Shown here: positions 1 through 21,865 of the stretch, one piece after another
How the letters are laid out: each line of letters opens with the position of its first letter
How positions within the stretch are numbered: position 1 is the stretch's first letter
Assembly (NCBI GenBank): GCA_018304325.1
Contig: JAGVWM010000021.1
Location: 1 to 47,866 of the forward strand
DNA: 47,866 nt
Source: Candidatus Pacearchaeota archaeon
Lineage (GTDB): Archaea; Nanobdellota; Nanobdellia; Pacearchaeales; GW2011-AR1
Reading direction: 5' to 3'
Notes under the pieces: model-generated
What the model was told of the DNA's origin: nothing
Databases searched by the model: none
The model's input: the letters and a program-made list of their open reading frames with translations, nothing else
Translations under genes and position numbers: made by a program

Positions 1-431
1 CTTTGCAAAGTTGTATAAGATGCTTGCTGTCCAACTAAACAACATCCTAAAGAACATTGAGGAATTGAATCAGGAGTGCCTTCATTCCATAAACCATTTG
101 CTTGTTTACAAGCTTCTTCTGGAACATTTTCCATACATAATCCTTCATCACTATCATAACATGTTCCTTTTTGACAAAAACTAGTTGCTTCACAACTTGT
201 TGGGGTGCTTCTTAAACTAGCATCGCAATCTGATAAAGGAGCGTTTTGACAATAAGCTCCATCTTTAGTTCTTTCACAACAATAACTTACCTCTCCAGAA
301 GTTGTACTAGATGTTGTTTGAGCGTAAACAAATGAAACACTTAATGTAAACATTAAAAATACTGATAATGTAATTATACTTAACAATAATCTTTCTTTTT
401 TAATAACCCTCTTTTTATTTTCTTTTTCCAT
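1..431 (-). CDS. Cys-rich secreted/surface protein, N-terminal part (CDS runs off the window edge)
   Basis: The minus-strand frame is open from the ATG at 431-429 to the window edge, so it is absent from the ORF track. It reads MEKENKKRVIKKERLLLSIITLSVFLMFTLSVSFVYAQTTSS... (signal anchor), then Cys-rich sequence ending ...PQCSLGCCLVGQQASYTTLQ. This is colinear with GCCFDT...CELGCCILGQEAQLTTERRC of ORF 4361..5713. Confidence 0.6.
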   Translation of the reverse strand, partial: MEKENKKRVIKKERLLLSIITLSVFLMFTLSVSFVYAQTTSSTTSGEVSYCCERTKDGAYCQNAPLSDCDASLRSTPTSCEATSFCQKGTCYDSDEGLCMENVPEEACKQANGLWNEGTPDSIPQCSLGCCLVGQQASYTTLQ

Positions 432-432
432 G

Positions 433-534
433 TTAAATTAAAGCCCTAATAATACCGTATATCAAGGCTATAGCTGCAATAATCCCAACTGCCCAGGCTA
501 TACAGTACAATATTCTTAGTTTTTTATCTTTCAT
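433..534 (-). CDS. Possible 33-aa single-helix membrane peptide
   Basis: Minus-strand ORF MKDKKLRILYCIAWAVGIIAAIALIYGIIRALI ends 1 nt before the start of the Cys-rich CDS. It is hydrophobic but too short to be sure. Confidence 0.3.
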   Translation of the reverse strand: MKDKKLRILYCIAWAVGIIAAIALIYGIIRALI

Positions 535-590
535 TCTTCCCCCTTTCATTTTTTATCTTTCCCATTTTGTATTTTTTATTTCATTTTGGG

Positions 591-609
591 AACCTTTTTT
601 TAAAAGGTT
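591..609. promoter_or_regulatory. Palindrome AACCTTTTTTTAAAAGGTT upstream of a Cys-rich gene unit (candidate TATA/operator)
   Basis: An identical 19-mer recurs at 5735-5753, again just 5' of a Cys-rich paralogue on the minus strand. Confidence 0.4.
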
Positions 610-884
610 TATTTTAAATCCACAATCTCTTTTTCTTATTTATCTTATTTAATAATCATATTTCCACTTATTTTTAATTTATTATTTATGTCCATAAATC
701 TAAAACCACATTCTTTAGAATGTGGTAGTAACTTTAGGGTTTTAGATTTTGGATCATCCAGAAAACCACTAAACAAACCACACCTTTTAAGGTGTGGTAA
801 ACTCAAGGTTTTCTTGATTTTGACCATTTCTTTTTTATCTTCCTTCATTTTTTATCTTCCTGTTTTTTAAATATTCGTCGCTGT

Positions 885-956
885 TGGACGAGCCGAGATT
901 TGCACCCGGATACCTTAGGCGACGGCTAAGGACATTAACTATTATGTTACTCGCCC
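885..956 (-). tRNA. tRNA-Asp(GTC)-like, non-canonical
   Basis: Hand-folded cloverleaf. Acceptor GGGCGAG/CTCGTCC (one G-U); D stem ACAT/ATGT. Anticodon stem CTTAG/CTAAG with loop CCGTCGC (anticodon GTC). 4-nt variable region; T stem CCGGG/CTCGG with loop TGCAAAT; discriminator A; no encoded CCA. C at position 33 and G at 55 are atypical. Confidence 0.55.
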
Positions 957-1045
957 AACTATGAATAGGAAGTTTTAAATATAAGTTATTATTATAATTA
1001 TAGACGGCTAAGGTATTAGTTATTATGTTACTTTTTCTTTTCATT

Positions 1046-1939
1046 TTAAAATCCATATCCTGGTGGCCATGCCAGACTCCTCACAGCAAACTGAAATTTA
1101 TCATTAGTATTTCTATCAGTTAATATATATACAGTTGTTCCATCTTCTTGTTTATATTTTTCCACTTTTACTCCAGGATATAATATCATATATTGTAAAG
1201 GATCACTATCACCATATCTTGCCTCATAATTTAACAAACTTGTACTTAATCCAACTAATTTGTAAGCATTACTTGGAATGCTTATTTCAAACCCCTCAAA
1301 TCTTTGAGTATTATCTTTTGTAACAGCAAGATCATAATTTATTTTTATTATTACATTTTTATTAGCTAAATTAACCTCAAAATTATAATTTCTACTACTT
1401 AATGTATAACCTTTAGAAGTTAGATCTTCTTGTAATGTCTTAACACAAGAATCAACCTGATCTTTAACTGCTTTTTTTATTTCTGATTCAACATATGAAA
1501 CTAAAAGAGGTTTTTGCATATAACAAGTCTGATAATACTGATTTGTATAGCATAGATATTCTATTTGTTTTCCTTGATACTGATAGTATAACTTTGGTTC
1601 ATTTGTTCCGCCTTGTAATAAAATATTATTAATAGAATTTTTAATATCATCATTTTGTAAACACTCTCTTAAGTTTTGTTCAACATTTATTTCCTGGCTA
1701 CCAAATACTTGTTGAGTTAAATTTTTACCCTGCTGAGTTATAGTAAAAAATAAAACAATTCCAACAACTATCACAATTGCAATGATTACAAATACTGTTA
1801 CTTGCGAGCGCTTTGACTTTACCAAATTATTATTAGAACTAAAAGTCAAAGTGCGAGTTGCTTTTTTATCACCCTTTTTTATCATCTTCATTTTAACGAG
1901 GATTTTATTTATAAACTTAATTACATTTTGTGATGTCAA
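1046..1939 (-). CDS. Pilin-like protein with class III (type IV prepilin-like) signal peptide
   Basis: ...KKATRTLTFSSNNNLVKSKRSQVTVFVIIAIVIVVGIVLFF is a basic stretch, then KRS/Q, then a hydrophobic helix. It is a paralogue of ORF 5779..6606 and shares LCYT..C spacing and the C-terminal FQFAVRS / MQFALRN. The true start is probably the internal MIKKGDKK near 1885. Confidence 0.6.
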   Translation of the reverse strand: MTSQNVIKFINKILVKMKMIKKGDKKATRTLTFSSNNNLVKSKRSQVTVFVIIAIVIVVGIVLFFTITQQGKNLTQQVFGSQEINVEQNLRECLQNDDIKNSINNILLQGGTNEPKLYYQYQGKQIEYLCYTNQYYQTCYMQKPLLVSYVESEIKKAVKDQVDSCVKTLQEDLTSKGYTLSSRNYNFEVNLANKNVIIKINYDLAVTKDNTQRFEGFEISIPSNAYKLVGLSTSLLNYEARYGDSDPLQYMILYPGVKVEKYKQEDGTTVYILTDRNTNDKFQFAVRSLAWPPGYGF

Positions 1940-2061
1940 GATTTTTTTGAAAACTATACATTTTAGTGTCTAGTTAAATCTTGATCATCCAAAAGTCCAA
2001 ATAAACTATACTTGCAAGGTACATTAACATTTAGACTTTTTGATATTTATATCTTGCATTT

Positions 2062-5000
2062 TTATTCAGCAGCCTGATATGGTTTAACAACTGCTGAACA
2101 CTGATCTGGCTCATTACTCCATATATCTTTGCATTTTATGTATGAAATTGATTTTAAGTTCCATACAGTTTTATGAATTTTAGTATTTCCGAAATCCATA
2201 CTTGTGCCATTTGCAAATCTTCATCTGTTTCTATAACTAAATCTCCAAAGTCATAATAAATTCTTGTAATTCCGGGAGGAATTGTGTCTAATTCAAGATT
2301 AAAGTTAGTATTTCCATATGCAAGATTTCCAGCACTATCAATACATCTTACATCTATAGAATAATTTCCTATATTTAGCGATGTAAATGTCTGCTTGTGT
2401 TCATTTGAAAGAGTTTGTGCAAATGTGATATAAGGTTGTGTATTTATAGAATACTGGCACGCTGCTTCACCAGAACTAAAACCTCCGGTTGTACTGACTA
2501 TTAAATCTACTTGAGATGTTTCACTTCCTCTTGTTATTGTTCCAGATGGAGAAATACTACTTATTGTCAAATCAGTTGAAGTTTTTTTCAAAGTATATAC
2601 ATAACCTGCCCCAATATTTCTTTTAGTATCTTCCCCTAACCAAGGCTGATCTCTGCATTTAATATAAAATTTATTTTCATCTTCAGGTAAAGAAAGTCCA
2701 ACTGTGCAAGGATACCCAAGTAGAGTTGCATCATTTAAATTATTTTTACAATTCAATGTTTTAGTCATTTCAAAATATCCGACATCACTTGTATTATATT
2801 TACATTCTGCAGGTTCATTAATAAAAAATGTAGTTATCCATGAAGTTGTATTTTTAGCAACATAAGAATCTGATTTTGGTGCAGTTGCTAAAACAACAGG
2901 AGGAGTTAAATCAGGTCCTGGTTTTACGCAGAAATTTACTTCATATACCCCAGTATTTTCTAAACCATTCATATTCCTACATTTAACATAAAGGTTAATT
3001 TCTCCCGCTTTATCCAGTATTGAATCATAAGCTGTTTGATTATTTTTTATTATTTCACTTGCCTGAGAAAATTCTGCAGGATTATTTGTTTCACCTGCAA
3101 TAATGCTATCAACACTTGGGAAAAATGTTAGTGCAGTATGATTTTTACTTAATACTTCTCCTTCTAAGAAGTTTCCAGACATTTCTTCATATGTTTCTCC
3201 AGATTCTTCTGAATATCTGCAAGATGAAAGAACATTTGTATCAATCCCAATTGTTACTGGGGAAAATGGATTTACACACTCTCCGCTTGAAGTTCTAACT
3301 TCAAATCCATTATTACTTACACTTTGGTATTTATATCCCTCAGTTAAAATTTTTTCATCAGCGCTTAAAATAGGAGGACCATCTTCTCCCTGAATTGAAG
3401 TACACTTATCATAACCTGTTCCTTCATTAACTATTTTACAATTTGATCCTAGAGATTCACATCTATATTTGCTACATGGTTTCTGAGGATCATTATTACA
3501 GAAATCACAATTGCCTCCAGAAGGTTGTGTCCATGCTTTGCATTCAAATGTTATCTCTGTTTCTTCTTGCTTTCCACATCCTAATGCATACATAATTCCA
3601 ACAACAGCCAATGCTCCAATAGCTGCTAACCCTAAAGGAGATATTACAGTAAGGGTGCTTCCTCCAGCAAAGCCAACTCCAACTCCTCCAGTAGCAGCTC
3701 CTATTCCTCCACCAATACCTGCACCAACAGCAGCTCCTCCAACAGTTCCACCTAAATTTGAACCAGAAAACATATTTCCTAACTGATCATCATTAGCGCT
3801 AACCTTTCCAGCAGAAAACATATCTTCAATTCCAAAGTTTTGCAAAAGGTTCATTCCTTGCACATTATTATAAAATCCAGGATCAGCACTTCCAGTTATG
3901 CTTGTTAATCCAGAAGAAAATGCATTTATTGCATACATTTTTTCCAAACCCATAAGTCTTGGAGGTTCTTTTGCCTTGCCCCCTTCTTTTTTTATTGAGT
4001 AACCACCATCAGTTGTTTTTCCAGCAATATTTGTATAAGCTCCGCAATCTCCTAAAGTTCTGCAATAATTATTCATTTGCTGTGTGAACTGTATTTTTTC
4101 ACACTCGCAGTTTTTTACACATTCCCATCCACCAGGACATTTTTTTTCATAAACTACAACACATGTTTTTGTTCCTGCATCACAAATACTTTCACTTCCT
4201 CCACTTCCTAAATTTCCTACATCTCCTAGTGCCCCTCCTCCTAAATTTCCCCCTAATTCACTTCCCACAGCACTTGTTATAGCTCCACCTTGTCCAAATT
4301 CATTTCCGGGAGGATATTGTGGAACACAGGCAGTAAAATAAAAATCCTCATCTATATAAACTACTTTAGGAGTGCAGTCAGGGTTTTGAGAGCATGTAGC
4401 AATATTTCTTCCAGAACAATCTTCCCACATATTAGGTCTGCAAAAAGCTCCACTTTGATCAGGATTTTGAGAAAGACGCTACTACCTCCACCTAATCCAC
4501 CAGTTAATTCTCCTCCCAAATCACCACCAAAAATATCTCCAATTGCATTTCCAGTTAATCCACCAAGCAACCCATTTCCACTTAAAATTTCACTTCCAAA
4601 TCCACCTGTTTCCACACAAATTTCTTTTCTATAATCAGCACATGGTTCTGTTTGTATTTCTCCATTTACACACAACTCTCTAAAATGCCTGCTTCCAACA
4701 ACATCATTTCCATTTCCAACTTTACCATCATAAACACACCAAGATTCTCCGTTTGTCCTGATTTTTAATTTATCTCTGCAATTTAGATCTCTACAAACAT
4801 AATCTCCATCAGTTTTCTTTTTGTCTTGTCCAGACTTATAAGCAGCACATAAACTTCCTTCACCATAATCACAATTCCCACAACCTTGGGATCTTATATT
4901 ATTACTTCCCACTCCACAAGAATTTTCTTTGCTCAAAATTTTTCCATCATTAAAAGATCTATCTTTATTAGAGTCATAAATATTCTCTCTATTTCCACAA

Positions 5001-5713
5001 GAATCAAACCAATAAATTTCATCTTTACCTTCAACACAATTAGTATTAACTTGTTTTTCACAATTAGTTTTCAATTCAGGATTACTACATAAATAATTTT
5101 CATAAAATTCTCCACCTATTGATTGACATTCAGTTTTTGTTCCAAACTTACAAGTATTTTCTCCACCTTCGCTATCAAGAATAACACAAGCACCTTCACT
5201 TTGGCTGTCAGCTAATCCAACACATGTTAATTCATCTTTTACACTTGAATCAAACTTTCCAGGTATTCCATTTAATTCTTCAAGTTTTTCACATCTTCTT
5301 TCGGTTGTTAGCTGAGCTTCTTGCCCAAGAATACAACATCCCAACTCACACTGATTTACTTCACATGATGTTGAAGAAAACCATTGACCATCTTGTTTAG
5401 ATTCACACTGAGTTTTTATAGAGTTTGGGGTACACAATCCTTCATTGGTATCAAAGCAACATCCATTTCCTCCACTTCCACTTAAACTGCTTAAAGAACT
5501 TCCCCCAATACTAGACAAATCTGGAAGTGATTGTGCAGAAACACTAGGAATTAAAATAAAAAAACTATCAACTTCGTTAATTAAATCATTATTTATCTGA
5601 TACCCAGATAAAATAAAACTAAAACCTAATATTGAAGAAACAAATAATATTATTTCAAATACGGCAATATATTTCTTTTCTTTCTCTTGATTTTCCTCTT
5701 TTTTATTTTTCAT
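2062..5713 (-). pseudogene. Giant (~1200 aa) Cys-rich, Gly-rich surface protein, interrupted by two apparent 1-nt frame shifts
   Basis: ORFs 4361..5713 and 2154..4430 overlap. The frame of the second is open from 4478 and reads RLSQNPDQSGAFCRPNMWEDCSGRN, continuing the first after ...GGLGGGSS. A third frame after ...IETDED (about 2225) reads FANGTSMDFGNTKIHKTVWNLKSISYIKCKDIWSNEPDQCSAVVKPYQAAE, with its stop at 2062-2064. There is an N-terminal signal anchor and many C-x-C modules. Confidence 0.55.
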
Positions 5714-5733
5714 TCCTTTTTCATTGTTTTTGA

Positions 5734-5754
5734 GAACCTTTTTTTAAAAGGTTC
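5734..5754. promoter_or_regulatory. Palindrome GAACCTTTTTTTAAAAGGTTC upstream of the giant Cys-rich gene
   Basis: Lies 20-40 nt 5' of the ATG at 5713. It has the same 19-mer core as 591-609. A second partial palindrome, AAGCCTTTTTCTAAAGGTTT, follows. Confidence 0.4.
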
Positions 5755-5778
5755 ATTTGGAAGCCTTTTTCTAAAGGT

Positions 5779-6606
5779 TTATTTAGGTGTAGGTTGTACA
5801 CAATTTCTCAAAGCAAATTGCATTATCTTTCCAGTTTTAGTATCAGTTACAGTGTAAACTTTTTCATCATCTCCTGTTTGATCTTTGGCTATACTAACCC
5901 AAGTATTTGTTCTCATAATTAATGTGTAATCACTATTACAATATATTGCTTCTTGGTAAATTATTTTTTGGATTATTATTGCCATGTCATACAAAGGAGT
6001 AAAAGTTGATATTTCTACTGAACTGAATTTTCTTTGCTCATCAGCTTTTTTTATGTTTATATCTGCATCAATACTAACTTTAGCTTTATCAGGAACTAAA
6101 CTTATTGCAAACCCCTTATAATTAACACTTACTTGATAAGCTTTAGATTCATAATCAGCTTTCATCTGGTTCACACAATTAGATACTTTATTATTCATAT
6201 AAAGATGAATTTCATTTTCTAAATGTTCTATCCAAACAGCTTCCGAAGGATAACATTTTTCCCCAGTATTTCCAGTATAGCATAAATAAGGTAAATCTCG
6301 CCCTTTGTAACTTTTTGTCTTTTGAGGAAGTTGTATATATCCTGAGTTTGTAATAATTTTATCTACAGATTCTTCTAAACTACTTTGGATACAACTTTCC
6401 AAAAAATCTTTAGGATTATCAGAGCTGGTAGGTTTTATAGACAAATCATTTTTCTTGAATAATACAAAAAGGAGTATTATTGCAACAACTATAATTATTG
6501 CTAATATTACAAATATTGTCACTTGCGAGCGCTTTGACTTTACTAAATCATTATTAGAACTGAAAGTAAAAACGCTAGTTGCTTTCTTATTTTGTTTTTT
6601 TAGCAT
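5779..6606 (-). CDS. Pilin-like protein with class III signal peptide (paralogue of 1046..1939)
   Basis: MLKKQNKKATSVFTFSSNNDLVKSKRSQVTIFVILAIIIVVAIILLFVLF, with the same architecture and conserved Cys positions as 1046..1939. Confidence 0.6.
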   Translation of the reverse strand: MLKKQNKKATSVFTFSSNNDLVKSKRSQVTIFVILAIIIVVAIILLFVLFKKNDLSIKPTSSDNPKDFLESCIQSSLEESVDKIITNSGYIQLPQKTKSYKGRDLPYLCYTGNTGEKCYPSEAVWIEHLENEIHLYMNNKVSNCVNQMKADYESKAYQVSVNYKGFAISLVPDKAKVSIDADINIKKADEQRKFSSVEISTFTPLYDMAIIIQKIIYQEAIYCNSDYTLIMRTNTWVSIAKDQTGDDEKVYTVTDTKTGKIMQFALRNCVQPTPK

Positions 6607-6610
6607 TTTC

Positions 6611-6820
6611 TTATTTTACCATCCATAAATTTACACCATCTTTTTTTATTCTTTCTATTTTATTATCTACAACTAACTCTAATAAATACTTGTCGGCAGT
6701 ATTCCAGGATATCTTGAAATGTTTCGCGACTTCAGAACTAGTAACAACTCTACTTTTTTTTATAAATTCTAAAATTTTATTGTTATGAATATTCATATCA
6801 TAAAACATAGTAATAATCAT
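6611..6820 (-). CDS. Small winged-helix DNA-binding protein
   Basis: KILEFIKKSRVVTSSEVAKHFKISWNTADKYLLELVVDNKIERIKK is an HTH-like pattern. It lies 4 nt upstream of the pilin-like gene. Confidence 0.5.
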   Translation of the reverse strand: MIITMFYDMNIHNNKILEFIKKSRVVTSSEVAKHFKISWNTADKYLLELVVDNKIERIKKDGVNLWMVK

Positions 6821-6895
6821 ATTATTATTTATATGAAGATAAATATTACTACTAATATGTATAATAATACAAAGTATTTAAACATTTTTATTGGT

Positions 6896-6916
6896 ATACA
6901 TTGTTACTTTAATTGG
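6896..6916 (+). repeat. Left terminal inverted repeat
   Basis: ATACATTGTTACTTTAATTGG, preceded by TATTGGT. Confidence 0.8.
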
Positions 6917-6980
6917 CCTTTTTGTCTTTTGAGTTTTAGGGTGCCGATATATTTAAAAAGTTCTGGCACCTAATTAATTT

Positions 6981-7139
6981 ATGAAAATAATGAAAGTTTT
7001 GGACAAAAAAATTGGTGATGTGGAGTATATTAAGTTTAGAATTAATCTACCTAAACAAGTTGTTGAAAATTCAGGATTAAAAGAAAAAGAAGTTAAAGTT
7101 AGAGAAGAAAAAGGGAAAATTATAATTGAGAAGGAATAA
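6981..7139 (+). CDS. AbrB/SpoVT-like small DNA-binding protein (52 aa)
   Basis: MKIMKVLDKKIGDVEYIKFRINLPKQVVENSGLKEKEVKVREEKGKIIIEKE fits the swapped-hairpin pattern (x-I-x-I/L-P-K-x-V/I ... G-K-I-I-I). It is below the ORF-track cutoff. TATA-like GATATATTTAAAA lies about 23 nt upstream. Confidence 0.5.
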   Translation: MKIMKVLDKKIGDVEYIKFRINLPKQVVENSGLKEKEVKVREEKGKIIIEKE

Positions 7140-8487
7140 TTCCCTTTACTAAGTATTTGCTTGTCTTTGTTGTTCCTTGATGTTCTAACAACCCTGCACT
7201 AACCAATTCATTTAATATTTTTAAAGCAGTTACTCTTGAAACACCTAGATATTTCATTACATTTGATGAGGTTATTATTTTATTTTTCTTTATCATCGTG
7301 TATAATCTTATCATCTTTATATCTTTAGATATTTTTGAACTCAAGCTTATTTTAACATAGAATGAAGATGGCGAATCTCCAATTACCTTAAATTCAGGCT
7401 CTATTTTACGTAAACGTTCAAGTTCTTCTTTTATTTTCCATATACCTTCTCCTCTACCTTCATATAATTGTTTTGGATTAAGGAATGTATAAAGTCCTTC
7501 ATTAGGATGATATGTAGTATGACTAAATAATATATCTGCCCACATTTTTTCAGAAACTACTGCAGGATTGCTTATATCAAAACAATCTGCAAATATTCTT
7601 ATCCTAATGTGCTCACTACTTCGGTAATTTCTATGAGCTACAGAGTTAGTAATGACTTCACGGATTACACTTACAGGAATTGTTGGGGATTCAATCATCT
7701 TAGCACCCTCGTATCTTCTTTCAATAGGTAAGTTTTGTATAAGTATTTGAGTCGCTTCCTCAATTAAGAGACCTGCAGGTCTTGACAACTTTATTGAAGT
7801 TCCGATTGGAATTGGAGAACTACCCAAAACATTTTCATACTTTTGAATTTCTATAAATGCTCCTTCAACATATTCAACTGGATTTTTAGATAATGCAATT
7901 ACTCCCCGTATAGTAATTGAACCATTATGGGTAATGCTTTCTAGGATATTTTTTTCATCTTTAACCAGAAGTTTGGAATATTTTTTTAATTCATCTTTAT
8001 CAACATCTTCTTTGGTAGCATGAGTTGGTAAATTTTCAATATTAACACCCCCATAAACAATATGATAACGCCTTACTTCTTCAGGTTGCAAAGGTAAACA
8101 TGATTCTCCTTTTCTTTCGTAGAAAGTTTTTTTATAAGCACATGGCTTTAACTCCCCAACATCTCTAACTTCTATAAGACCTAAGTTTTTGCCTTTATAT
8201 AAAATAATCTTAGATTTAGTTAATGGGGAAGGTTTAACATTATTAATAGCTTGAGAAAATGTTCGCTGGAATTCATCTTCATCAACTCCAATTATTTCTC
8301 CCCCTTGTTTCAGGTCTCTTTGCCCAACAAGAATTACGCCACCAATTTTAGTCCCAAAACTTGCTATTCTAATTCCTATATTTTCCTGGTCACAAGTAGT
8401 TCTGTCAAAAGTTTCACTTTCAGAGTATTCTATAAGCTTCTCACTACTTAAATTATAAATCGTGTCTAATGCTACTTTGTCTTCCAT
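7120..8487 (-). CDS. AlbA_2 (Schlafen-like) + HATPase_c_4 + C-terminal wHTH putative regulator / ATP-binding protein
   Basis: N-terminus: ...IASFGTKIGGVILVGQRD...IGV...LIEVRDVG..P..YKKTFYERKGESCLPL (divergent AAA/AlbA_2 pattern). Middle: VIREVITNSVAHRNYRSSEHIRIRIF (HATPase_c_4 pattern). C-terminus: SSNVMKYLGVSRVTALKILNELVSAGLL (wHTH). Confidence 0.6.
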   Translation of the reverse strand: MEDKVALDTIYNLSSEKLIEYSESETFDRTTCDQENIGIRIASFGTKIGGVILVGQRDLKQGGEIIGVDEDEFQRTFSQAINNVKPSPLTKSKIILYKGKNLGLIEVRDVGELKPCAYKKTFYERKGESCLPLQPEEVRRYHIVYGGVNIENLPTHATKEDVDKDELKKYSKLLVKDEKNILESITHNGSITIRGVIALSKNPVEYVEGAFIEIQKYENVLGSSPIPIGTSIKLSRPAGLLIEEATQILIQNLPIERRYEGAKMIESPTIPVSVIREVITNSVAHRNYRSSEHIRIRIFADCFDISNPAVVSEKMWADILFSHTTYHPNEGLYTFLNPKQLYEGRGEGIWKIKEELERLRKIEPEFKVIGDSPSSFYVKISLSSKISKDIKMIRLYTMIKKNKIITSSNVMKYLGVSRVTALKILNELVSAGLLEHQGTTKTSKYLVKGIIPSQL

Positions 8488-8490
8488 AAT

Positions 8491-8534
8491 AATTGTTTAA
8501 TTGTTTAGTATATAAACTTTACTATTAAACAATT
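8491..8534. promoter_or_regulatory. Operator-like inverted repeat around the TATA box of 7120..8487
   Basis: AATTGTTTAAT (8491-8501) and ATTAAACAATT (8524-8534) flank minus-strand AAAGTTTATATA. AATTGTTTA is also tandemly repeated. Confidence 0.4.
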
Positions 8535-8593
8535 AAATATCTTACTATTTCGGGTTCCGAAAGGTTTATATAGTTCGGGTGCCTAATTATTGT

Positions 8594-9505
8594 ATGAAAA
8601 CAGAAATAAAATGTCCAAACTGTAAAAGCCAAGAAGTAGTCAAGCGTGGTTTCTTTCAGACAGAAGTTCATGGAAAGCAACAAAGATATTTCTGTAAGAT
8701 TTGTGGTAAAAAATTCATAGAACAAACTCCTTTTTACAGAATGAGAAATAAATCAGAAAAGATAACACTTTGTTTAGATTTATTCTTTAAGGGAATTTCA
8801 ACAAGACAAGTTCAATCACATCTACAAGCATTTTATCCTCATAATTCAAGTCATAAAACAATTTACTTATGGGTTGTTAAGTATTCTAACTTGATTTCTA
8901 ATTATACTAATAACCTTAAATTGAATGTCGGTAAAGAATTGCAAATTGATGAGATGGAAATAGGAAGCAGAAAGTCAAGGTATAGGGGTTGGTTTATTGA
9001 TAGTATCGATACTGAAACAAGATTTATGGTTAGTTCCGAGTTTAGTAAGAAAAGAGATTTAAAAGAAGTAAAGAGAGTTTTAAGTCAAGCTAAAAAGAAA
9101 ACTGAAAATCAAGTAGAAACTATTACAAGTGATGGGTGGTTAGCATATCCAAAGGCTGTTCAAAAGACCTTTACAATAAAAAAGAAAAGTAATACTAAGA
9201 AATATGGAGTTAATCATCAAGTTCTTAATGCTTCTCAAGGAGATGGTTTTAATATTAAGATTGAAAGATTACATAATTCAGTTAGACATAGAATTAAAAC
9301 ATTCAGAGGATTTCACGGAAGTGTTAATAGTGCAAATTCTATAATGAAAGGTTTTGAAATTCATTATAATTTTATCAGACCACATTTAGCTTTGAAAGGT
9401 AAAACTCCATCAGAGTTAGCTACTGATATAAAATTAATGGAGAGTAATAAATGGTTGGAGTTAATTAATTTATCTTCTCTTAACCCAAAAGAATCCAGCA
9501 ACTAA
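8594..9505 (+). CDS. DDE transposase with IS1-InsA-like N-terminal zinc finger (IS1/IS6-type; family uncertain)
   Basis: CPNCKSQEVVKRGFFQTEVHGKQQRYFCKICGKKF. Candidate D-D-E triad in QIDEMEI, ITSDGWLAYPKA and IERLHNSVRHRIKTFRGF, followed by HYNFIRPHLALKGKTPSELA. The ATG at 8594 is preferred over the GTG at 8579. BRE/TATA GAAAGGTTTATATA lies at 8559-8572. Confidence 0.7.
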   Translation: MKTEIKCPNCKSQEVVKRGFFQTEVHGKQQRYFCKICGKKFIEQTPFYRMRNKSEKITLCLDLFFKGISTRQVQSHLQAFYPHNSSHKTIYLWVVKYSNLISNYTNNLKLNVGKELQIDEMEIGSRKSRYRGWFIDSIDTETRFMVSSEFSKKRDLKEVKRVLSQAKKKTENQVETITSDGWLAYPKAVQKTFTIKKKSNTKKYGVNHQVLNASQGDGFNIKIERLHNSVRHRIKTFRGFHGSVNSANSIMKGFEIHYNFIRPHLALKGKTPSELATDIKLMESNKWLELINLSSLNPKESSN

Positions 9506-9657
9506 TCCAATAATTAAACATCCTGCTCCTATGAAATTAGAAGTTGAATTAGTCATGTTTCCAATAACATTTCCAGTTATATTATTTGATAAAAAAAATA
9601 TGCCTCCTAATAAACCAATAATTGCTGTTGTTGATATGATTAAAGGAACAATAGAAG

Positions 9658-10035
9658 TTAGACTTTTCTTCTTCTTTCTTTAAATCGTTCTATTTCTTTT
9701 TCATCTCCTGCTCTCTCATAACATTGCTCAGCCTTATCTAAATAATGATTCCTAATAGAATCACCTGCAATCCTTGAAAAAGAGTGAACTCTTTTACTTT
9801 TCTGTTCATATAATTCACCAAGAACTTTATAAATACTTTTTCTTGTACCCCTCGAAAAAGGTTTTTTACTTTTATCATAAAAATAAGGTTCATTATGAAA
9901 ACCATCTGGAAATCCCTGAGTTAAAATGTCTGCAAGATAAGTGATTTTAGTATTTGTTGTCGCCTTATTTTTTAGATGCTCTTTTACTTCATCAGTAGTC
10001 ATGTATCCTCTTTTAGCACTTTCTTTTTTCACCAT
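9658..10035 (-). CDS. Hypothetical protein (125 aa), transposon passenger
   Basis: Clean ORF next to the right TIR. No motif recognised. Confidence 0.45.
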   Translation of the reverse strand: MVKKESAKRGYMTTDEVKEHLKNKATTNTKITYLADILTQGFPDGFHNEPYFYDKSKKPFSRGTRKSIYKVLGELYEQKSKRVHSFSRIAGDSIRNHYLDKAEQCYERAGDEKEIERFKERRRKV

Positions 10036-10085
10036 ATTTAATTAAAAAAAAGCCTTTTTAATTATTTCTAGAGTTTACATTTAAG

Positions 10086-10106
10086 CCCAATTAAAGTAAC
10101 AATGTA
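10086..10106 (-). repeat. Right terminal inverted repeat
   Basis: CCAATTAAAGTAACAATGTAT, followed by TATTGGT. Confidence 0.8.
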
Positions 10107-10139
10107 TTATTGGTAATAATAAAACAGGCTTTGCTCGCC

Positions 10140-10865
10140 TTAATCCTCATTTTCAACCCTTGGAGCAAGTATAAATGATAGTTCAAAAGTATCTTTTTTA
10201 AATTCTAATTTTATTGGGCTATCGCTTGAAAAATTAACAAATATCTTATCAGCAAGCTTGCTGGCTTTGATGAATTTTTGAAGATATTCTAAACTATATT
10301 TTGACTTAGAGTTTCCAGATATAATTTTTACCTCATCACCAGAAAATTCAGCCCTTGCTGAATTCAGCCCTTGAGCTTCAATTATAAAATTATCTGGAGT
10401 AGATATCATTGTACATGCATCACTAACTATAAGGCAATCTTCAATAGCATCTACAAAATCACCTGGAGATATTTGAATCTGACTAAGAAATTCTAATTTT
10501 GGAGGATCTTTGTCTTCCGATTCAACTTCTATAAGAGCAAGAGAAAAGCTTCTTTTTATTTTATCTAAAATATCTAAGTCAATTGTAGTTTCATGACTTT
10601 CCATTATTAAACTGCTCCCAGGTTTAGTTCTCCGTAAAACTGCTTTAAAATTATCAAGATTAATTCCTAAAATTTCATGTCCAGACTGATACTCACTAAA
10701 TGAACTTCTTGGTAATTTGAAATAAACCATTGCTACATTTGCAGGATCTATTGCAACTATAGATAACCCATCTTCATTGAATCTTAACTTAACCTCTGTT
10801 ACTAACTCTGAGATTATAGAAACAACCTCAGAAAGTAGTTTAGGATGATCTAGTTTTGCCCTCAT
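10140..10865 (-). CDS. pcn: DNA polymerase sliding clamp (PCNA)
   Basis: 241 aa. ...VSIISELVTEVKLRFNEDGLSIVAIDPANVAMVYFKLP... and the C-terminal ...FILAPRVE are typical of archaeal PCNA. Confidence 0.85.
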   Translation of the reverse strand: MRAKLDHPKLLSEVVSIISELVTEVKLRFNEDGLSIVAIDPANVAMVYFKLPRSSFSEYQSGHEILGINLDNFKAVLRRTKPGSSLIMESHETTIDLDILDKIKRSFSLALIEVESEDKDPPKLEFLSQIQISPGDFVDAIEDCLIVSDACTMISTPDNFIIEAQGLNSARAEFSGDEVKIISGNSKSKYSLEYLQKFIKASKLADKIFVNFSSDSPIKLEFKKDTFELSFILAPRVENED

Positions 10866-10941
10866 TTTAGTCTTTTTTCATAATGGCCGGAAGCTTTTAA
10901 GTATTATTGTTCTAAACTGAACAAAGGTATTTAAAATTACA

Positions 10942-12501
10942 ATGGCTTTTGATAAAATGAAAAAAGAGAAGGTAAGTTCACTATCTCTGCCTTATTATTC
11001 AAGAAAAGACGTTCTTGAGGCTCTTTTTAATTTTTCAAACAAAAGAGAGGTAGCCCCAAGATACTTTGACAGCTTTGGTAAAAGACCGGATAGTTTTCAA
11101 TATCCCTCAGATATAATTGCTTTAGTAAAAAAGGGTGCTTCAAGTTTCCATTGTTCTGAGGAAAGATGGCAAGACCCATTGCAACTTAAGACAGGTATGC
11201 CTGAAACAGAGCTTAGTGAATTAAGGGAAGGTTGGGATTTTATTATTGATATTGACTGTAATTGGATAGATTATAGTAAAAAAGCAGCTATTGCTATAAT
11301 AAAAGCTCTTGAATACAGAGGAGTAAAAAATATTGGAATTAAATTTTCAGGTAGTAAAGGTTTTCATATTATAGTGCCATGGGAAGCTTTTCCAGAAGAT
11401 GTAAACGGAATAAAAACCAGTTCAATGTTTCCAGAATGGCCAAGGGCAATAGTTGGTTATATAAAAGAACTTGCTCGTCCAATTTTAGAAGATTTAATTA
11501 AAGAAACTGAGTCTGACTTTTTAAAAGTTAAAGGTTATTCTGGAGTTAAATGTGAAAATTGTAACAACCTAGCAGATCTTAGATTTGAGGTAACTGTAAG
11601 ATGTGATAAATGCTCTCCACCACATATAGAGATATTCAAAACTTCAAATGAAAATTATAAAAATAAAAAATGCCCCATTCATAATAAAACTGACTTAATT
11701 GAAACAAAAAAACAGAAATTTTATTATTGTCCAAGATGTACTCTTAATTCTTTAGAAAATAAAAAAAATTTTAGTGAAAGGATATCAATTGATATTTTCA
11801 AAGTTTTAGGTTTAGATTTACAGTTAGTTTCTCCAAGGCATTTATTTAGAATGCCTTATTCATTACATGAAAAAACAGCTTTAGCAAGTATTGTGCTTGA
11901 TAAAGATAAAATATCTAATTTTGAGATAACAGATGCAGATCCTCTTAGTGTTGTTGTTAAAGAGTTTATTCCAAAAGTTAAAAAAAATGAAGCTAAAGAA
12001 TTACTTTTAAGCTCAATAGATTGGTATATGTCTCGGAGAAAAGAAGATAAGTTAGATTACTCTCAAGTTGATAGAAAAGATAAAGTATTTGAAATGCCTA
12101 AGATAAAAGTTAAAGATGATTATTTTCCTCCAATTATCCAAAAAATTCTAAAAGGAATGGAAGATGGAAAAAAAAGAGGCTTATTTATTTTGCTTAATTT
12201 TTTCAGATCTTTAGGATTTCCAATTGAAGAAGTGGAAAGTAAAATAGAAGAATGGAATAAAAAAAATAATCCTCCTCTTAAAGATGGTTATATTAAAGCA
12301 CAATTAATCTGGCATGCCCGTCATCCTCCTGTCATGCCACCAAACTTTGATAATGAAATCTATAAAGAAATAGGAGTTTTTGATACAGACAACTTAAGTG
12401 AGAAAATAAAAAATCCAGTTTCTTATGTTATTGCAAAAGAAAAATTAGATAGGAAATTAAGCGGTAAAAAATCAGACAAACAAAAGAATTATAAACTATA
12501 G
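10942..12501 (+). CDS. priS: Archaeo-eukaryotic DNA primase (PriS-like catalytic domain, Zn knuckle and C-terminal helical domain)
   Basis: DFIIDIDC (DxD), FSGSKGFHIIVPWEAF (SGxGxH) and Cys clusters CENCNN...CDKC / CPIH...CPRC. The C-terminal part reads DGKKRGLFILLNFFRSLGFPIEEVESKIEEWNKKNNPPL (PriCT/PriL-like helical module). Confidence 0.75.
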   Translation: MAFDKMKKEKVSSLSLPYYSRKDVLEALFNFSNKREVAPRYFDSFGKRPDSFQYPSDIIALVKKGASSFHCSEERWQDPLQLKTGMPETELSELREGWDFIIDIDCNWIDYSKKAAIAIIKALEYRGVKNIGIKFSGSKGFHIIVPWEAFPEDVNGIKTSSMFPEWPRAIVGYIKELARPILEDLIKETESDFLKVKGYSGVKCENCNNLADLRFEVTVRCDKCSPPHIEIFKTSNENYKNKKCPIHNKTDLIETKKQKFYYCPRCTLNSLENKKNFSERISIDIFKVLGLDLQLVSPRHLFRMPYSLHEKTALASIVLDKDKISNFEITDADPLSVVVKEFIPKVKKNEAKELLLSSIDWYMSRRKEDKLDYSQVDRKDKVFEMPKIKVKDDYFPPIIQKILKGMEDGKKRGLFILLNFFRSLGFPIEEVESKIEEWNKKNNPPLKDGYIKAQLIWHARHPPVMPPNFDNEIYKEIGVFDTDNLSEKIKNPVSYVIAKEKLDRKLSGKKSDKQKNYKL

Positions 12502-21311: not shown

Positions 21312-21865
21312 TTTTGCTTTTTCTTTCCAGATTTTTTACTAGTTTTTTCTTCTTTAATTTCATTAGTTTTTTCTTGTTCTGATGAATTACTTATTGATAA
21401 ACCAGTTTGTTCCATCAAACTTTTTAGTTGATTTTCAAGTATTTCTCTATCAACCAAAATCTTTTTAGTTATTTCATCATATCTATGAAGTCTCACTACA
21501 ATTCCTGTAAGTATTCCACTAATATCATTATTTTTTAATATAAAATTCTCAGGAGAGATAATTTCTATATTGGATGGCATATAATTAAATGTAGCCATAA
21601 GTAAATGTTCTACCTCATCAAATTCAACTTCAATATCTGCAAATGTTGTAAAAAGCTTTTGTTTAACACTTATTTTTTTATTCTCATTTTCCCCTTCCAT
21701 ATTGTATTCTACAGGATCATGAACTGTTTTTTGCAATATTTTTGTTCCTTTTTCATTACCCATCCTATCAATTAACTGTTCCATTGTTAATTTAACATGG
21801 TCTGCTGGACGTCCAAGTATCTCTATTATAAATCCAACCTTTATTTTTTGTTTTTCTTGAGCCAT
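21308..21865 (-). CDS. Hypothetical protein (185 aa, Lys/Glu-rich tail)
   Basis: Clean ORF with a 4-nt overlap with the convergent neighbour. No motif recognised. Confidence 0.45.
   Translation of the reverse strand: MAQEKQKIKVGFIIEILGRPADHVKLTMEQLIDRMGNEKGTKILQKTVHDPVEYNMEGENENKKISVKQKLFTTFADIEVEFDEVEHLLMATFNYMPSNIEIISPENFILKNNDISGILTGIVVRLHRYDEITKKILVDREILENQLKSLMEQTGLSISNSSEQEKTNEIKEEKTSKKSGKKKQN

What the first reader, a model, noticed from the sequence alone, without database searches (positions are those of the whole stretch)
6889..10113. 3.2-kb cargo-carrying transposon with perfect 21-bp TIRs and a 7-bp target-site duplication
ATACATTGTTACTTTAATTGG (6896-6916) is exactly reverse-complementary to 10086-10106, and both ends are flanked by the direct repeat TATTGGT. 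The element is far larger than a simple IS. Besides a zinc-finger DDE transposase it carries an AbrB-like ORF, an AlbA_2/HATPase_c_4/wHTH protein and a 125-aa unknown. It sits between a pilin-gene operon and PCNA. The inferred empty site is ...CATTTTTATTGGTAATAATAAAAC.... Passenger-bearing transposons are poorly documented in small archaeal genomes.
Basis: seen in the sequence. Interest (0 to 1): 0.7.

Follow-up and report, generated by a model that had tools for sequence, protein, structure and literature searches.

The report
Cargo-carrying IS6-like transposon in a DPANN archaeon
This is a real 3.2-kb transposon in a tiny-genome (Pacearchaeota-type) archaeon, and it belongs to a large, apparently undescribed family of IS6-related elements that carry a small regulator gene and swappable passenger genes, often DNA-methylase or defence-type genes.

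Summary
The repeat is real and the transposon reading holds, with corrections. Comparison with 46 related bounded elements shows the true parse is a 3210-bp element at 6897-10106. It has 20-bp perfect TIRs (23/24 over 24 bp) and a 9-bp target-site duplication TTATTGGTA, not 21 bp plus 7 bp. The 303-aa transposase has a zinc ribbon and an IS240-type DDE domain. It is a divergent branch of the zinc-finger IS6-like group and scores below NCBIfam's IS6 and IS1 cut-offs. It has more than 800 relatives, almost all in DPANN archaea. Bounded family members measure 2.0-6.9 kb, so none is a bare IS. The 52-aa AbrB/MazE-like ORF is a recurrent core gene, not cargo. Its promoter and the transposase promoter share a box-TATA-box layout, and the boxes co-vary within elements (permutation p = 3.5e-4), which suggests an element-specific repressor. 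The AlbA_2/GHKL-ATPase/wHTH gene (DIP2311-like) is long-term cargo: abrB-AlbA_2-tnp recurs at other sites with other 9-bp duplications. The "125-aa unknown" is a frameshifted 188-aa membrane protein. A sister strain with an identical PCNA protein lacks the insertion. No exact empty site and no second identical copy were found, so current activity is unproven. I rate it a new variant of a known kind, of moderate interest.

The parts
6888..6896 (.). Left copy of the 9-bp target-site duplication TTATTGGTA
   Evidence: Identical to 10107-10115. The 9-bp length is fixed by 46 related elements with exact 9-bp TSDs. All same-site contigs show the same TSD.
6897..6920 (+). Left terminal inverted repeat (IRL): TACATTGTTACTTTAATTGG perfect, 23/24 over 24 bp
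   Evidence: It matches the family consensus T-R-C-A-T-T-G-T-T-A-C/A-N-T-T-A-A-N-G-G-K-T-S-T-T.
6936..6980 (+). abrB promoter: distal box TTAGGGTGCC (6936-6945), TATA region GATATATTTAAAAAG (6946-6960), proximal box TTCTGGCACC (6961-6970), TAATTAATTT, then the ATG. The mRNA is probably leaderless.
   Evidence: The layout recurs only at 8549-8593 in the window ([D1], 42, 43). It is conserved, and its boxes co-vary, across AbrB-type family members.
6981..7139 (+). 52-aa AbrB/MazE-like small DNA-binding protein; putative repressor and core gene of this element type
   Evidence: PF04014 at E = 0.002 here, sub-threshold in 9/12 homologues. hhalign against PF04014-positive small ORFs of sister elements gives E = 3e-4. 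The AF2 model has pLDDT 92.7 and beta-beta-alpha-beta-beta topology. Seven of the top 7 PDB fold hits are MazE, AbrB or C56-pSSVi, but at E = 0.6-2. There are 246 homologues. The gene is present in 19 of 80 genome loci, usually as the first gene inside IRL.
7120..8487 (-). 455-aa cargo gene: AlbA_2 (Schlafen-like) + GHKL-type HATPase_c_4 + C-terminal wHTH (DIP2311-like). It is convergent with abrB and overlaps it by 20 nt.
   Evidence: Pfam. AF2 pLDDT 82. Foldseek gives full-length hits to 3lmm DIP2311 at E = 5e-20, plus 2kyy and histidine-kinase CA domains. phrog_12156 at 8.8e-33. About 90 DPANN homologues. Every homologue context examined has an overlapping 52-aa AbrB ORF, and an IS240-type tnp or its remnant.
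8490..8535 (.). 46-nt palindrome (two 23-nt arms, 83% complementary, no spacer) just upstream of the AlbA_2 start codon; candidate operator/promoter of the cargo gene
   Evidence: I9. Its function is inferred only.
8549..8593 (+). Transposase promoter: distal box TTCGGGTTCC (8549-8558), TATA region GAAAGGTTTATATAG (8559-8573), proximal box TTCGGGTGCC (8574-8583), TAATTATTGT, then the ATG
   Evidence: (D1). The same architecture sits upstream of tnp in L035, L040, L048, L051, L053, L054 and others.
8594..9505 (+). 303-aa transposase: N-terminal CxxC...CxxC zinc ribbon, predicted HTH, and a DDE_Tnp_IS240 catalytic core (D119, D180, E224, R231 invariant)
   Evidence: Pfam and NCBIfam. Alignment A2. 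824 homologues at 58-99% identity, nearly all DPANN. 259 hits in GTDB species representatives.
9470..10035 (-). Second cargo gene, here a pseudogene or short allele. The 125-aa ORF (9658-10035) is the N-terminal part of a 188-aa protein with two C-terminal TM helices. The frameshift is in the T4 run at 9664-9667 (T5 in other assemblies). The full-length 3' end overlaps the tnp 3' end.
   Evidence: There is no solid family hit; the only match is a weak PHROG holin hit, E = 0.004.
10083..10106 (-). Right terminal inverted repeat (IRR)
10107..10115 (.). Right copy of the 9-bp target-site duplication TTATTGGTA

Best explanation
Window 6897-10106 is one copy of a unit transposon ('transporter IS'). 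It belongs to a family specific to DPANN archaea whose transposase is a divergent zinc-finger member of the IS6-like DDE group.

Shown by sequence: the element is bounded by 20-24-bp TIRs and a 9-bp target duplication. It interrupts the roughly 100-bp spacer between PCNA and a small wHTH gene, which is uninterrupted in a sister strain. The same TIR and TSD signature bounds 46 other elements of 2.0-6.9 kb.

Inferred mechanism: the transposase binds the TIRs through its zinc ribbon and HTH. It cleaves the 3' ends and joins them to target DNA with a 9-bp stagger, and repair then makes the duplication. Whether this runs by IS6-style copy-in (cointegrate, then resolution) or by cut-and-paste is not determined. 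I lean slightly to copy-in, by homology.

Inferred regulation: the 52-aa AbrB/MazE-fold protein encoded just inside IRL binds two about 10-bp boxes that bracket the TATA box of both its own promoter and the transposase promoter. That would hold transposition down, in the manner of IS1 InsA.

Cargo: two slots hold exchangeable genes, one between abrB and tnp and one between tnp and IRR. In this element they hold a DIP2311-like AlbA_2/GHKL-ATPase/wHTH protein of unknown function and a small membrane protein that is frameshifted in this allele. Across the family, the cargo is most often DNA methyltransferases or restriction genes, Fic proteins and ATPases, so I think a conflict or defence role for the AlbA_2 protein is the most likely one.
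For: - TIR and TSD.
- Family re-parse and 47 bounded elements with exact 9-bp TSDs, median size 3.5 kb.
- Unoccupied site in strain L011 (identical PCNA protein, 95.5% nt identity in PCNA/primase).
- Transposase domains and invariant DDE residues.
- Nearest outgroup proteins pass the NCBIfam IS6 cut-off and carry the zinc finger.
- TIR positions 6-11, TGTT(A/G)C, match the IS6/IS26 consensus GGTTCTGTTGCAAA (PMC6807381).
- abrB recurs and sits first inside IRL.
- AbrB/MazE fold support.
- Twin-box promoters are unique to the two genes in the window and co-vary within elements (p = 3.5e-4).
- Cargo moves with the element. abrB-AlbA_2-tnp occurs at other sites with TSDs CTCTTCAAA (L119) and GAAAAATAG (L115). 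abrB-Fic-tnp and abrB-DUF4325/HATPase_c_2-tnp each occur in three species at different sites.
- A transposase 90% identical carries entirely different cargo (L111).
- Cargo census.
Against: - No second identical copy and no exact empty site were found for this strain. Every contig carrying the identical wHTH gene has the insertion. The only exact 24-mer 'empty-site' hits in JGI metagenomes are unrelated chance matches. Recent activity is therefore unproven.
- The sister strain's spacer is too diverged to confirm the 9-bp target base for base.
- The AbrB assignment rests on several weak signals, none significant alone.
- Repressor binding to the boxes is untested. The boxes could instead be bound by the transposase or by a host factor.
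- Four TIR pairs lack a TSD (L066, L081, L086, L111).
- ISfinder could not be queried, so the family may already have a name there.
Confidence: 0.8

Rival explanations
1. The AlbA_2/GHKL-ATPase/wHTH protein is not a passenger. It would be an accessory component of the transposition machinery, for example an ATP-dependent regulator or target selector, as IstB, MuB or TnsC are for other DDE transposons.
For: In every context examined it stays linked to abrB, and to an IS240-type tnp or its remnant. In the one intact case with a family tnp (L119), the transposases have diverged to 62% identity and AlbA_2 to 81%; AlbA_2 is 78-87% identical across the set. It has an ATPase domain and a DNA-binding wHTH. 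Several other slot-1 genes are also NTP-using proteins: ATPase_2/DUF234, an ORC/AAA-like protein, HATPase_c_2 and Fic.
Against: The slot holds non-homologous genes in close relatives. A transposase 90% identical has ATPase_2/DUF234 instead. Minimal 2.0-kb members (L051, L089) have no such gene yet carry TIRs and a TSD. The gene is transcribed convergently from its own promoter. DIP2311-like proteins are widespread outside transposons, including a PHROG family and a Corynebacterium structure.
Confidence: 0.12
2. The copy in this window is an immobile relic. It inserted once in an ancestor of this strain, became fixed and is decaying. On this view it documents past mobility, not present mobility.
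For: All of about 20 independent assemblies of this strain carry it at the same site, at 99.8-100% identity. No second copy of the identical transposase was found, apart from the possibly chimeric L008. One cargo gene carries a frameshift allele. Relatives include a tnp-truncated derivative and decayed copies.
Against: The TIRs are perfect over 20 bp and the TSD is perfect. The transposase ORF is intact, with all invariant family residues including the DDE triad. Both promoters are intact. The absence of other copies in fragmented metagenome assemblies is weak evidence.
Confidence: 0.3
3. The mobile unit is only the transposase gene, as a simple IS. The outer repeat would then bound a region of host genes by coincidence, or through a composite of two elements.
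For: Classical IS6 and IS1 elements are 0.7-1.5 kb with one or two transposition ORFs (PMC7986276).
Against: No inner TIRs flank tnp, and only two TIR copies exist in the window. There is only one transposase gene. In 47 elements the family TIRs with a 9-bp TSD always enclose 2.0-6.9 kb. The unoccupied allele lacks the whole 3.2 kb, not just tnp.
Confidence: 0.03
4. The inverted repeat plus direct repeat is a coincidental or regulatory duplication and not a transposon end.
For: The genome is AT-rich, so short repeats are common (one search lists many).
Against: Shuffles gave 0 matches for the 21-mer even with 3 mismatches. The same end sequence is conserved at element boundaries in dozens of other genomes.
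Confidence: 0.01

Closest known systems
IS6/IS26 family, especially the long zinc-finger-bearing group (ISfinder clade h; Harmer & Hall clades VII/VIII, e.g. ISCpe7) and the archaeal IS6-like elements
   Same: It has a DDE_Tnp_IS240 catalytic core (Pfam above cut-off). IS6 is the best NCBIfam hit for all 30 family members tested, and the nearest outgroup proteins pass the IS6 cut-off and have the N-terminal zinc ribbon. TIR positions 6-11, TGTT(A/G)C, and the invariant G7 match the IS6 consensus GGTTCTGTTGCAAA. As reported for archaeal and long bacterial IS6-like elements, the TIR consensus is longer than 14 bp and does not start with GG (PMC6807381).
   Different: The TSD is 9 bp, not 8. The ends start T-R-C, not GG. 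The score of 87.9 bits is below the IS6 equivalog cut-off of 125. The elements are 2.0-6.9 kb and multi-gene, whereas IS6 elements are 0.7-1.8 kb and only one tIS (ISDsp3) is recorded (PMC7986276). There is a separate small regulator gene. Cointegrate formation is untested.
IS1 family (and the IS1/IS1595 zinc-finger N-terminus)
   Same: It has an InsA-type N-terminal zinc ribbon (NF050000 hits 28 of 30 members; PF03811 weak). IS1 is the second-best NCBIfam hit for all members. A 9-bp TSD is the classical IS1 value (my knowledge). The idea of a small element-encoded repressor of transposase expression parallels InsA (my knowledge).
   Different: It scores 59.6 bits against an IS1 cut-off of 100. 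The catalytic core fits IS6 better. There is no InsA-InsB frameshift fusion. The regulator here has an AbrB/MazE fold and is a separate gene with its own promoter. From memory, ISfinder lists an archaeal IS1 subgroup (ISMhu11) with members up to about 4.6 kb. I could not check this: a literature search for the name returned nothing.
Transporter IS (tIS) / unit transposons with defence or R-M cargo, e.g. Tn7-like cargo carriers and R-M genes linked to transposases
   Same: It has IS-like ends and a single transposase, plus passenger genes that are exchanged between close relatives. The family cargo is enriched in DNA methyltransferases and restriction enzymes, Fic proteins and ATPases. This parallels what is reported for Tn7-like elements (PMC8649781) and for mobile R-M units (PMC2853133), both cited from title and abstract only.
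   Different: The transposase family is different and the elements are much smaller. There is no target-selection module or resolvase. The hosts are ultra-small DPANN archaea.
DIP2311-like proteins (PDB 3lmm; Pfam AlbA_2 + HATPase_c_4 + DIP2311-like_C), often mis-annotated as 'RecG-like helicase'
   Same: The cargo protein matches over its full length in fold (Foldseek E = 5e-20) and in domain order.
   Different: Sequence identity is only about 15%. No function is known for either protein.

Membership tests
IS6/IS26 family | DDE transposase of the IS240/IS6 type | tested here: inconclusive
   Pfam PF13610 scores 39.3 bits against a cut-off of 27, so it is met. The NCBIfam IS6 equivalog scores 87.9 bits against a cut-off of 125, so it is not met, although IS6 is the best family for 30/30 members. 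Next-nearest relatives do pass, at 148 bits.
IS6/IS26 family | 8-bp target-site duplication | tested here: not met
   An exact 9-bp TSD in the window and in 46 related elements. The IS6 value of 8 bp is from PMC7986276 and PMC6807381.
IS6/IS26 family | About 14-bp TIRs beginning GG, with G at position 7 (GGTTCTGTTGCAAA) | tested here: inconclusive
   G7 and T6 are invariant and TGTT(A/G)C is shared. Position 1 is T in 90 of 94 ends, and the conserved TIR is 24 bp. The paper notes the same deviation for archaeal and long IS6-like elements.
IS6/IS26 family | Small single-gene IS (0.7-1.8 kb); passenger genes exceptional | tested here: not met
   This element is 3210 bp. The family ranges from 2013 to 6924 bp, and every member has additional ORFs.
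IS6/IS26 family | Transposition through cointegrates (copy-in) | not testable with these tools
   The only indirect hint is that 4 TIR pairs lack a TSD.
IS1 family | IS1-type transposase (InsAB') with an N-terminal zinc finger | tested here: not met
   The NCBIfam IS1 equivalog scores 59.6 bits against a cut-off of 100. The zinc-domain model NF050000 scores 26.5 against 28 for the window protein and matches 28/30 members.
IS1 family | 8-9-bp TSD | tested here: met
   9 bp. The IS1 value is from my own knowledge.
IS1 family | Two overlapping ORFs joined by programmed frameshift | tested here: not met
   A single uninterrupted 303-aa ORF.
Transporter IS / unit transposon (descriptive class) | One transposase, terminal IRs and a TSD enclosing genes not needed for transposition | tested here: met
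   Cargo differs between close relatives, and the same cargo sets are found at different sites.
SpoVT/AbrB (MazE) superfamily (52-aa ORF) | Swapped-hairpin beta-beta-alpha-beta-beta domain with a match to PF04014 | tested here: inconclusive
   PF04014 is below the cut-off (18.5 against 24.7 bits) but hits 9/12 homologues. hhalign gives E = 3e-4 with probability 39%. The AF2 topology fits, and the top PDB fold hits are MazE, AbrB, C56 and VapB at non-significant E = 0.6-2.
DIP2311-like AlbA_2/HATPase_c_4 proteins (455-aa ORF) | AlbA_2 + HATPase_c_4 + C-terminal wHTH domains | tested here: met
   PF04326 scores 29.7 against 25.3 and PF13749 scores 35.4 against 26. The DIP2311-like_C match is weak. 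Foldseek hit to 3lmm at E = 5e-20.
Known anti-phage defence systems (PADLOC) | A significant match of any element gene to a defence-system model | tested here: not met
   Only weak partial hits of the AlbA_2 protein to the pAgo, Aga and SoFic models (best E = 4e-7, partial). The other three proteins have no hits.

The most novel reading that the evidence does not exclude
DPANN archaea (Pacearchaeota, Woesearchaeota, Nanoarchaeota) host a so-far unnamed family of IS6-related transposons that never occur as bare IS. Each carries an element-specific small repressor (AbrB-, Zn-ribbon- or RHH-type). In the AbrB type, matching twin operators sit on the repressor and transposase promoters, which would create 'immunity groups'. 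On this reading these elements are a main vehicle moving R-M and defence genes, and even housekeeping-like genes (CDP-archaeol synthase, an aaRS), between ultra-small archaeal genomes.
Probability: 0.4. Interest if true: 0.7.

Novelty: new variant of a known kind. Interest (0 to 1): 0.55.

Why it matters
DPANN archaea have very small genomes and depend on hosts, and little is known about how they gain and lose genes. This window holds a clean, intact example of a transposon family that is widespread in them: 259 hits in GTDB species representatives and more than 800 protein clusters. The family systematically carries passenger genes, most often DNA methyltransferases or restriction enzymes, Fic proteins and ATPases. 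That gives a concrete mechanism for exchange of defence and accessory genes in these lineages.

It also provides a compact, testable regulatory module: a 52-aa repressor candidate with co-varying operators on two leaderless promoters. For IS classification, it adds a well-populated group combining an IS6-like catalytic core, an IS1-like zinc finger and a 9-bp TSD. That bears on the published question of whether the zinc-finger and archaeal 'IS6' elements belong in that family at all.

Tried and rejected
1. Exact empty site. The 24-mer CATTTTTATTGGTAATAATAAAAC was scanned against JGI metagenome contigs and gave two hits (L122, L123). They share nothing else with the window and are chance matches in AT-rich DNA.
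2. Exact look-up of the flanking 69-aa wHTH protein. Every contig carrying it has the insertion, so there is no empty allele in this strain.
3. Other copies in the window. None were found. A TIR-like 20-mer at 21780 lies inside an ORF, is judged a chance match, and has no partner.
4. Polymorphism of abrB (49 vs 52 aa). This is only the gene-callers' choice of start codon; the DNA is identical.
5. Solved structures. The transposase profile gives only a marginal Mutator-family hit (6xg8, E = 0.005). The AlbA_2 protein and the AbrB profile give nothing by sequence.
6. Rfam on 6000-11000: nothing.
7. PADLOC: no convincing defence-system assignment.
8. Literature. No paper in the held library describes this family or 'ISMhu11'. 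A 2026 archaeal IS survey (PMC13343696) does not discuss passenger-bearing elements in these lineages.
9. L008 as proof of a second insertion site of the identical element. I rejected this as proof. The contig is 60-80% identical over the left 650 bp and then 100% identical, at 3x coverage, so it may be an assembly chimera.
10. L111, whose transposase is 90% identical, has TIRs but no TSD. I did not use it as TSD evidence.

Full report
**1. Observation**

The 21-mer ATACATTGTTACTTTAATTGG occurs exactly twice in the 47,866-bp window: at 6896-6916 on the plus strand and 10087-10107 on the minus strand. No further matches appear with up to 3 mismatches, and 100 dinucleotide-preserving shuffles gave none. 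The finding's right-arm coordinates are off by one. TATTGGT flanks both arms. The repeat is therefore real and far beyond chance.

**2. Boundaries, re-parsed with relatives**

The transposase has 824 homologues at 58-99% identity in the 5.8-billion-protein collection. It also has 259 tblastn-confirmed loci among GTDB species representatives. Nearly all are labelled Pacearchaeota, Woesearchaeota or Nanoarchaeota.

In the 80 loci fetched I searched for inverted repeats around the transposase gene.
- Together with two loci reached through the cargo gene (L115, L119), 46 loci have a conserved about 24-bp TIR flanked by an exact 9-bp direct repeat.
- The TIR consensus is T-R-C-A-T-T-G-T-T-A-C/A-N-T-T-A-A-N-G-G-K-T-S-T-T, with T6 and G7 invariant in 94 ends.
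- With the window, that makes 47 bounded elements.
- One more locus has 8/9 matching bases, one has 1 mismatch, and four TIR pairs have no TSD.

Applied to the window, the element is 6897-10106 (3210 bp). Its TIR is TACATTGTTACTTTAATTGG, 20/20 and 23/24 over 24 bp. Its TSD is TTATTGGTA at 6888-6896 and 10107-10115. The predicted empty site is unchanged.

**3. Evidence that the segment is an insertion**

An exact-protein look-up of the window's PCNA returned two kinds of contig.
- About 20 contigs carry the same insertion at the same place.
- A 147-kb contig (L011, plus 9 similar places) has PCNA followed after 84 bp by the 69-aa wHTH gene, with nothing in between.

That strain has an identical PCNA protein. 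It is 95.5% identical in DNA over PCNA/primase, but only 74-88% identical on the other side, where gene content also differs. The spacer has diverged too far to check the 9-bp target base by base.

All contigs carrying the window's exact wHTH protein have the insertion. Across assemblies the element is 99.8-100% identical, with the same TSD. A scan of JGI metagenome contigs for the exact 24-nt empty site found two contigs that are unrelated chance matches. So there is an unoccupied allele in a close relative, but no evidence of recent gain, loss or extra copies in this strain.

**4. Gene content**

- **6981-7139 (+), 52 aa.** PF04014 (MazE/AbrB) at E = 0.002, below the cut-off.
- **7120-8487 (-), 455 aa.** AlbA_2 and HATPase_c_4 above the cut-off, plus a weak C-terminal wHTH.
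- **8594-9505 (+), 303 aa.** Zinc ribbon plus DDE_Tnp_IS240.
- **9658-10035 (-), 125 aa.** No family hit. Other assemblies of the same insertion have one more T in the T4 run at 9664-9667 and encode 188 aa with two C-terminal TM helices. The window allele is therefore a truncation.

No Rfam family matches.

**5. The transposase**

Alignment of 30 family members shows invariant CxxC...CxxC, D119, D180, E224 and R231. I read these as the zinc ribbon and the DDE(K/R) motif; the HTH between them is inferred.

NCBIfam gives IS6 as the best hit and IS1 as the second for all 30 members, both below their curated cut-offs (87.9 against 125 and 59.6 against 100 for the window protein). The IS1/IS1595 zinc domain also matches.

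In the 50%-identity representative library, the family collapses to three full-length representatives (411-499 bits). There is then a gap to 230 bits or less, with 275 proteins at E <= 1e-30. Several of those next relatives pass the IS6 cut-off and carry the zinc finger.

The TIR shares TGTT(A/G)C at positions 6-11 and the invariant G7 with the IS6/IS26 consensus GGTTCTGTTGCAAA, but it lacks the initial GG and is longer. Harmer and Hall describe the same deviations for archaeal and long zinc-finger 'IS6' elements, and argue that those do not belong in the family proper (PMC6807381).

IS6 elements make 8-bp duplications, and only one carries a passenger gene (PMC7986276). This family makes 9-bp duplications, and every bounded member is 2.0-6.9 kb. 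I therefore file it as IS6-related, not as an IS6 member. NCBI's own names for these proteins are generic ('DDE-type integrase/transposase/recombinase'). I found no paper in the held library that describes the family. ISfinder could not be queried.

**6. The small ORF is a core gene and probable repressor**

*Distribution.* tblastn finds the 52-aa protein in 19 of the 80 loci. It is on the same strand as tnp and is usually the first gene 70-85 bp inside IRL. Most other elements have a different small DNA-binding ORF instead: a longer PF04014-positive protein, a 45-60-aa zinc ribbon encoded divergently from tnp, or an RHH protein.

*Fold.* The evidence is consistent but individually weak.
- PF04014 is sub-threshold in 9 of 12 homologues.
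- hhalign against the PF04014-positive group gives E = 3e-4.
- An AlphaFold model built on 68 homologues has pLDDT 92.7 and beta-beta-alpha-beta-beta topology.
- The seven best PDB fold matches are MazE, AbrB and the AbrB-like C56 of the Sulfolobus element pSSVi, at E = 0.6-2.

*Promoters.* The sequences upstream of abrB and of tnp have the same layout.
- abrB: TTAGGGTGCC - GATATATTTAAAAAG - TTCTGGCACC - TAATTAATTT - ATG.
- tnp: TTCGGGTTCC - GAAAGGTTTATATAG - TTCGGGTGCC - TAATTATTGT - ATG.

This layout occurs nowhere else in the window (the pattern was derived from these two sites). The TATA-to-ATG distance implies leaderless mRNAs, which is an inference.

The same architecture is found in other AbrB-type elements, and the box sequence changes from element to element while staying alike between the two promoters of one element. 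Examples are TTCAGGTACC in L048 and L034, TTCATGTAC in L045 and L051, and TTAGATACC or TAGGTATC in L036, L061 and L083. The longest shared substring between the two promoters averages 8.9 nt within elements against 6.5 nt between elements, with permutation p = 3.5e-4.

My reading is that the AbrB-like protein binds the two boxes that bracket the TATA box and represses both itself and the transposase. This is inferred, not shown.

**7. Cargo**

*Recurrent cargo sets.* The AlbA_2 gene and the 188-aa gene are absent from the 80 genome loci. However, the AlbA_2 protein has about 90 close homologues in DPANN. In every context examined it is followed by an overlapping convergent 52-aa AbrB ORF, and it has an IS240-type transposase or its remnant on the other side.
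- L119-L121 is a 3444-bp element beside a ribosomal-protein operon. Its TSD is CTCTTCAAA, its Tnp is 62% identical, and a Peptidase_S51 gene sits in the second slot.
- L115-L118 is a 2454-bp derivative. Its tnp is cut down to 77 codons, but the TIRs and the TSD GAAAAATAG are intact.

The abrB-AlbA_2-tnp unit has therefore moved as a whole more than once. Two other sets, abrB-Fic-tnp (L032, L040, L048) and abrB-DUF4325/HATPase_c_2-tnp (L034, L045, L054), each occur in three species at different targets.

*Exchange of cargo.* A transposase 90% identical to the window's, from the same sample, sits between entirely different genes: ATPase_2/DUF234 and a 432-aa ORF (L111). There are thus two exchangeable slots.

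*Census.* Of 89 cargo ORFs of at least 100 aa in 36 elements, 14 are DNA methyltransferases (N6_N4 8, D12 3, C5 2, N6_Mtase 1). There are also 2 MjaI-type restriction enzymes and 3 Fic proteins, plus SAM and SpoU methylases, NUDIX and scattered housekeeping-like genes.

*The window's cargo protein.* The AlphaFold model (pLDDT 82) matches the uncharacterised DIP2311 protein over its full length (3lmm, E = 5e-20). Its middle domain resembles histidine-kinase ATP-binding domains. It also matches phrog_12156. PADLOC gives only weak partial hits. Its function is unknown. From the company it keeps I guess a conflict or defence or regulatory role, at low confidence.

**8. Mechanism, and what is shown versus inferred**

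- *Shown:* TIRs, a 9-bp TSD, an unoccupied allele in a relative, an intact DDE transposase, family-wide conservation of the ends, recurrence of cargo sets at different sites, and co-varying twin-box promoters.
- *Inferred:* the transposase acts on the TIRs with a 9-bp staggered target cut. The AbrB-like protein is the box-binding repressor. The transcripts are leaderless. The cargo is conflict-related.
- *Undetermined:* copy-in versus cut-and-paste, and whether this copy is still active.

**9. Verdict**

The finding is a genuine cargo-carrying transposon. Its wider significance lies in the family behind it: an abundant IS6-related group restricted to DPANN archaea, with a 9-bp TSD, an element-encoded small regulator and obligatory passenger genes. 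As far as the available literature shows, it has not been described. I rate it a new variant of a known kind, interest about 0.55.

Noticed in passing
window 9664-9667 (within 9470-10035, minus strand): A T4/T5 length polymorphism. The window allele (T4) truncates a 188-aa membrane protein to 125 aa. The T5 allele occurs in several independent assemblies of the same insertion (L001, L002, L005, L010).
   Followed up: partly
L008:8286-10944 (ERZ4902915 NODE_3851): A mosaic contig. It has a different host flank (DHH, prenyltransferase, deoxyhypusine synthase) and a diverged left end with its own TIR (TACATTGTTAAGTTAGAGGTTGG), 60-80% identical. It then becomes 100% identical to the window from about 7550 to the contig end. 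This is either recombination between two related elements or an assembly chimera at 3x coverage.
   Followed up: partly
L115:4644-7097 (also L116-L118; 24 contigs): A 2454-bp non-autonomous relative. The TIRs and the 9-bp TSD GAAAAATAG are intact and abrB and AlbA_2 are intact, but the transposase is reduced to its first 77 codons, directly abutting one TIR.
   Followed up: partly
L042, L062, L063, L065, L067, L075, L076, L084, L090, L102, L107, L110 (upstream of tnp): Family members that lack the AbrB gene (most carry a zinc-ribbon small ORF instead) lack the twin-box promoter. In its place a GC-rich hairpin (e.g. GCCCCGAAGGGC) followed by a conserved GTTACCCACG-like motif sits immediately before the tnp ATG. 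This suggests a different, possibly RNA-level, control.
   Followed up: no
window 8490-8535: A 46-nt palindrome (23-nt arms, no spacer) centred on the likely TATA box of the AlbA_2 gene. It could be an operator for that protein's own wHTH.
   Followed up: no
L065, L073, L078, L084 (elements of 5.5-6.9 kb): The largest TIR- and TSD-bounded family members appear to be the ones carrying the housekeeping-like genes seen in the pooled cargo census: CDP-archaeol synthase, CDP-alcohol phosphatidyltransferase, a class-I (Trp/Tyr-type) aminoacyl-tRNA synthetase, a thioredoxin-reductase-like protein and inositol monophosphatase. The census did not assign hits to individual loci.
   Followed up: partly
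window 1-6820 versus 10140-12500, compared with L011: The insertion lies at the border between a conserved block (PCNA/primase, 95.5% nt identity to the sister strain) and a variable block of large secreted or membrane proteins (74-88% identity, with different gene content). It is 67 bp upstream of the wHTH gene's start codon, just beyond that gene's probable TATA box.
   Followed up: partly
AbrB-type elements in window, L032, L034, L040, L048, L054: abrB and the first cargo gene are always convergent, with stop regions overlapping by 4-20 nt whatever the cargo is (AlbA_2, Fic, DUF4325). The two genes could therefore be coupled by antisense transcription or transcriptional interference.
   Followed up: no
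L111:56-4131; also L066, L081, L086: TIR pairs of the family without any target-site duplication. This would fit inter-copy recombination, or intramolecular replicative events as in IS6/IS26, but collapsed repeat flanks in the assembly could also explain it.
   Followed up: no
window 6614-6778 versus AlbA_2 residues 394-448: Weak similarity (34% over 55 aa, E = 0.005) between the cargo protein's C-terminal wHTH and the neighbouring host 69-aa wHTH protein. This is probably just a shared fold.
   Followed up: no
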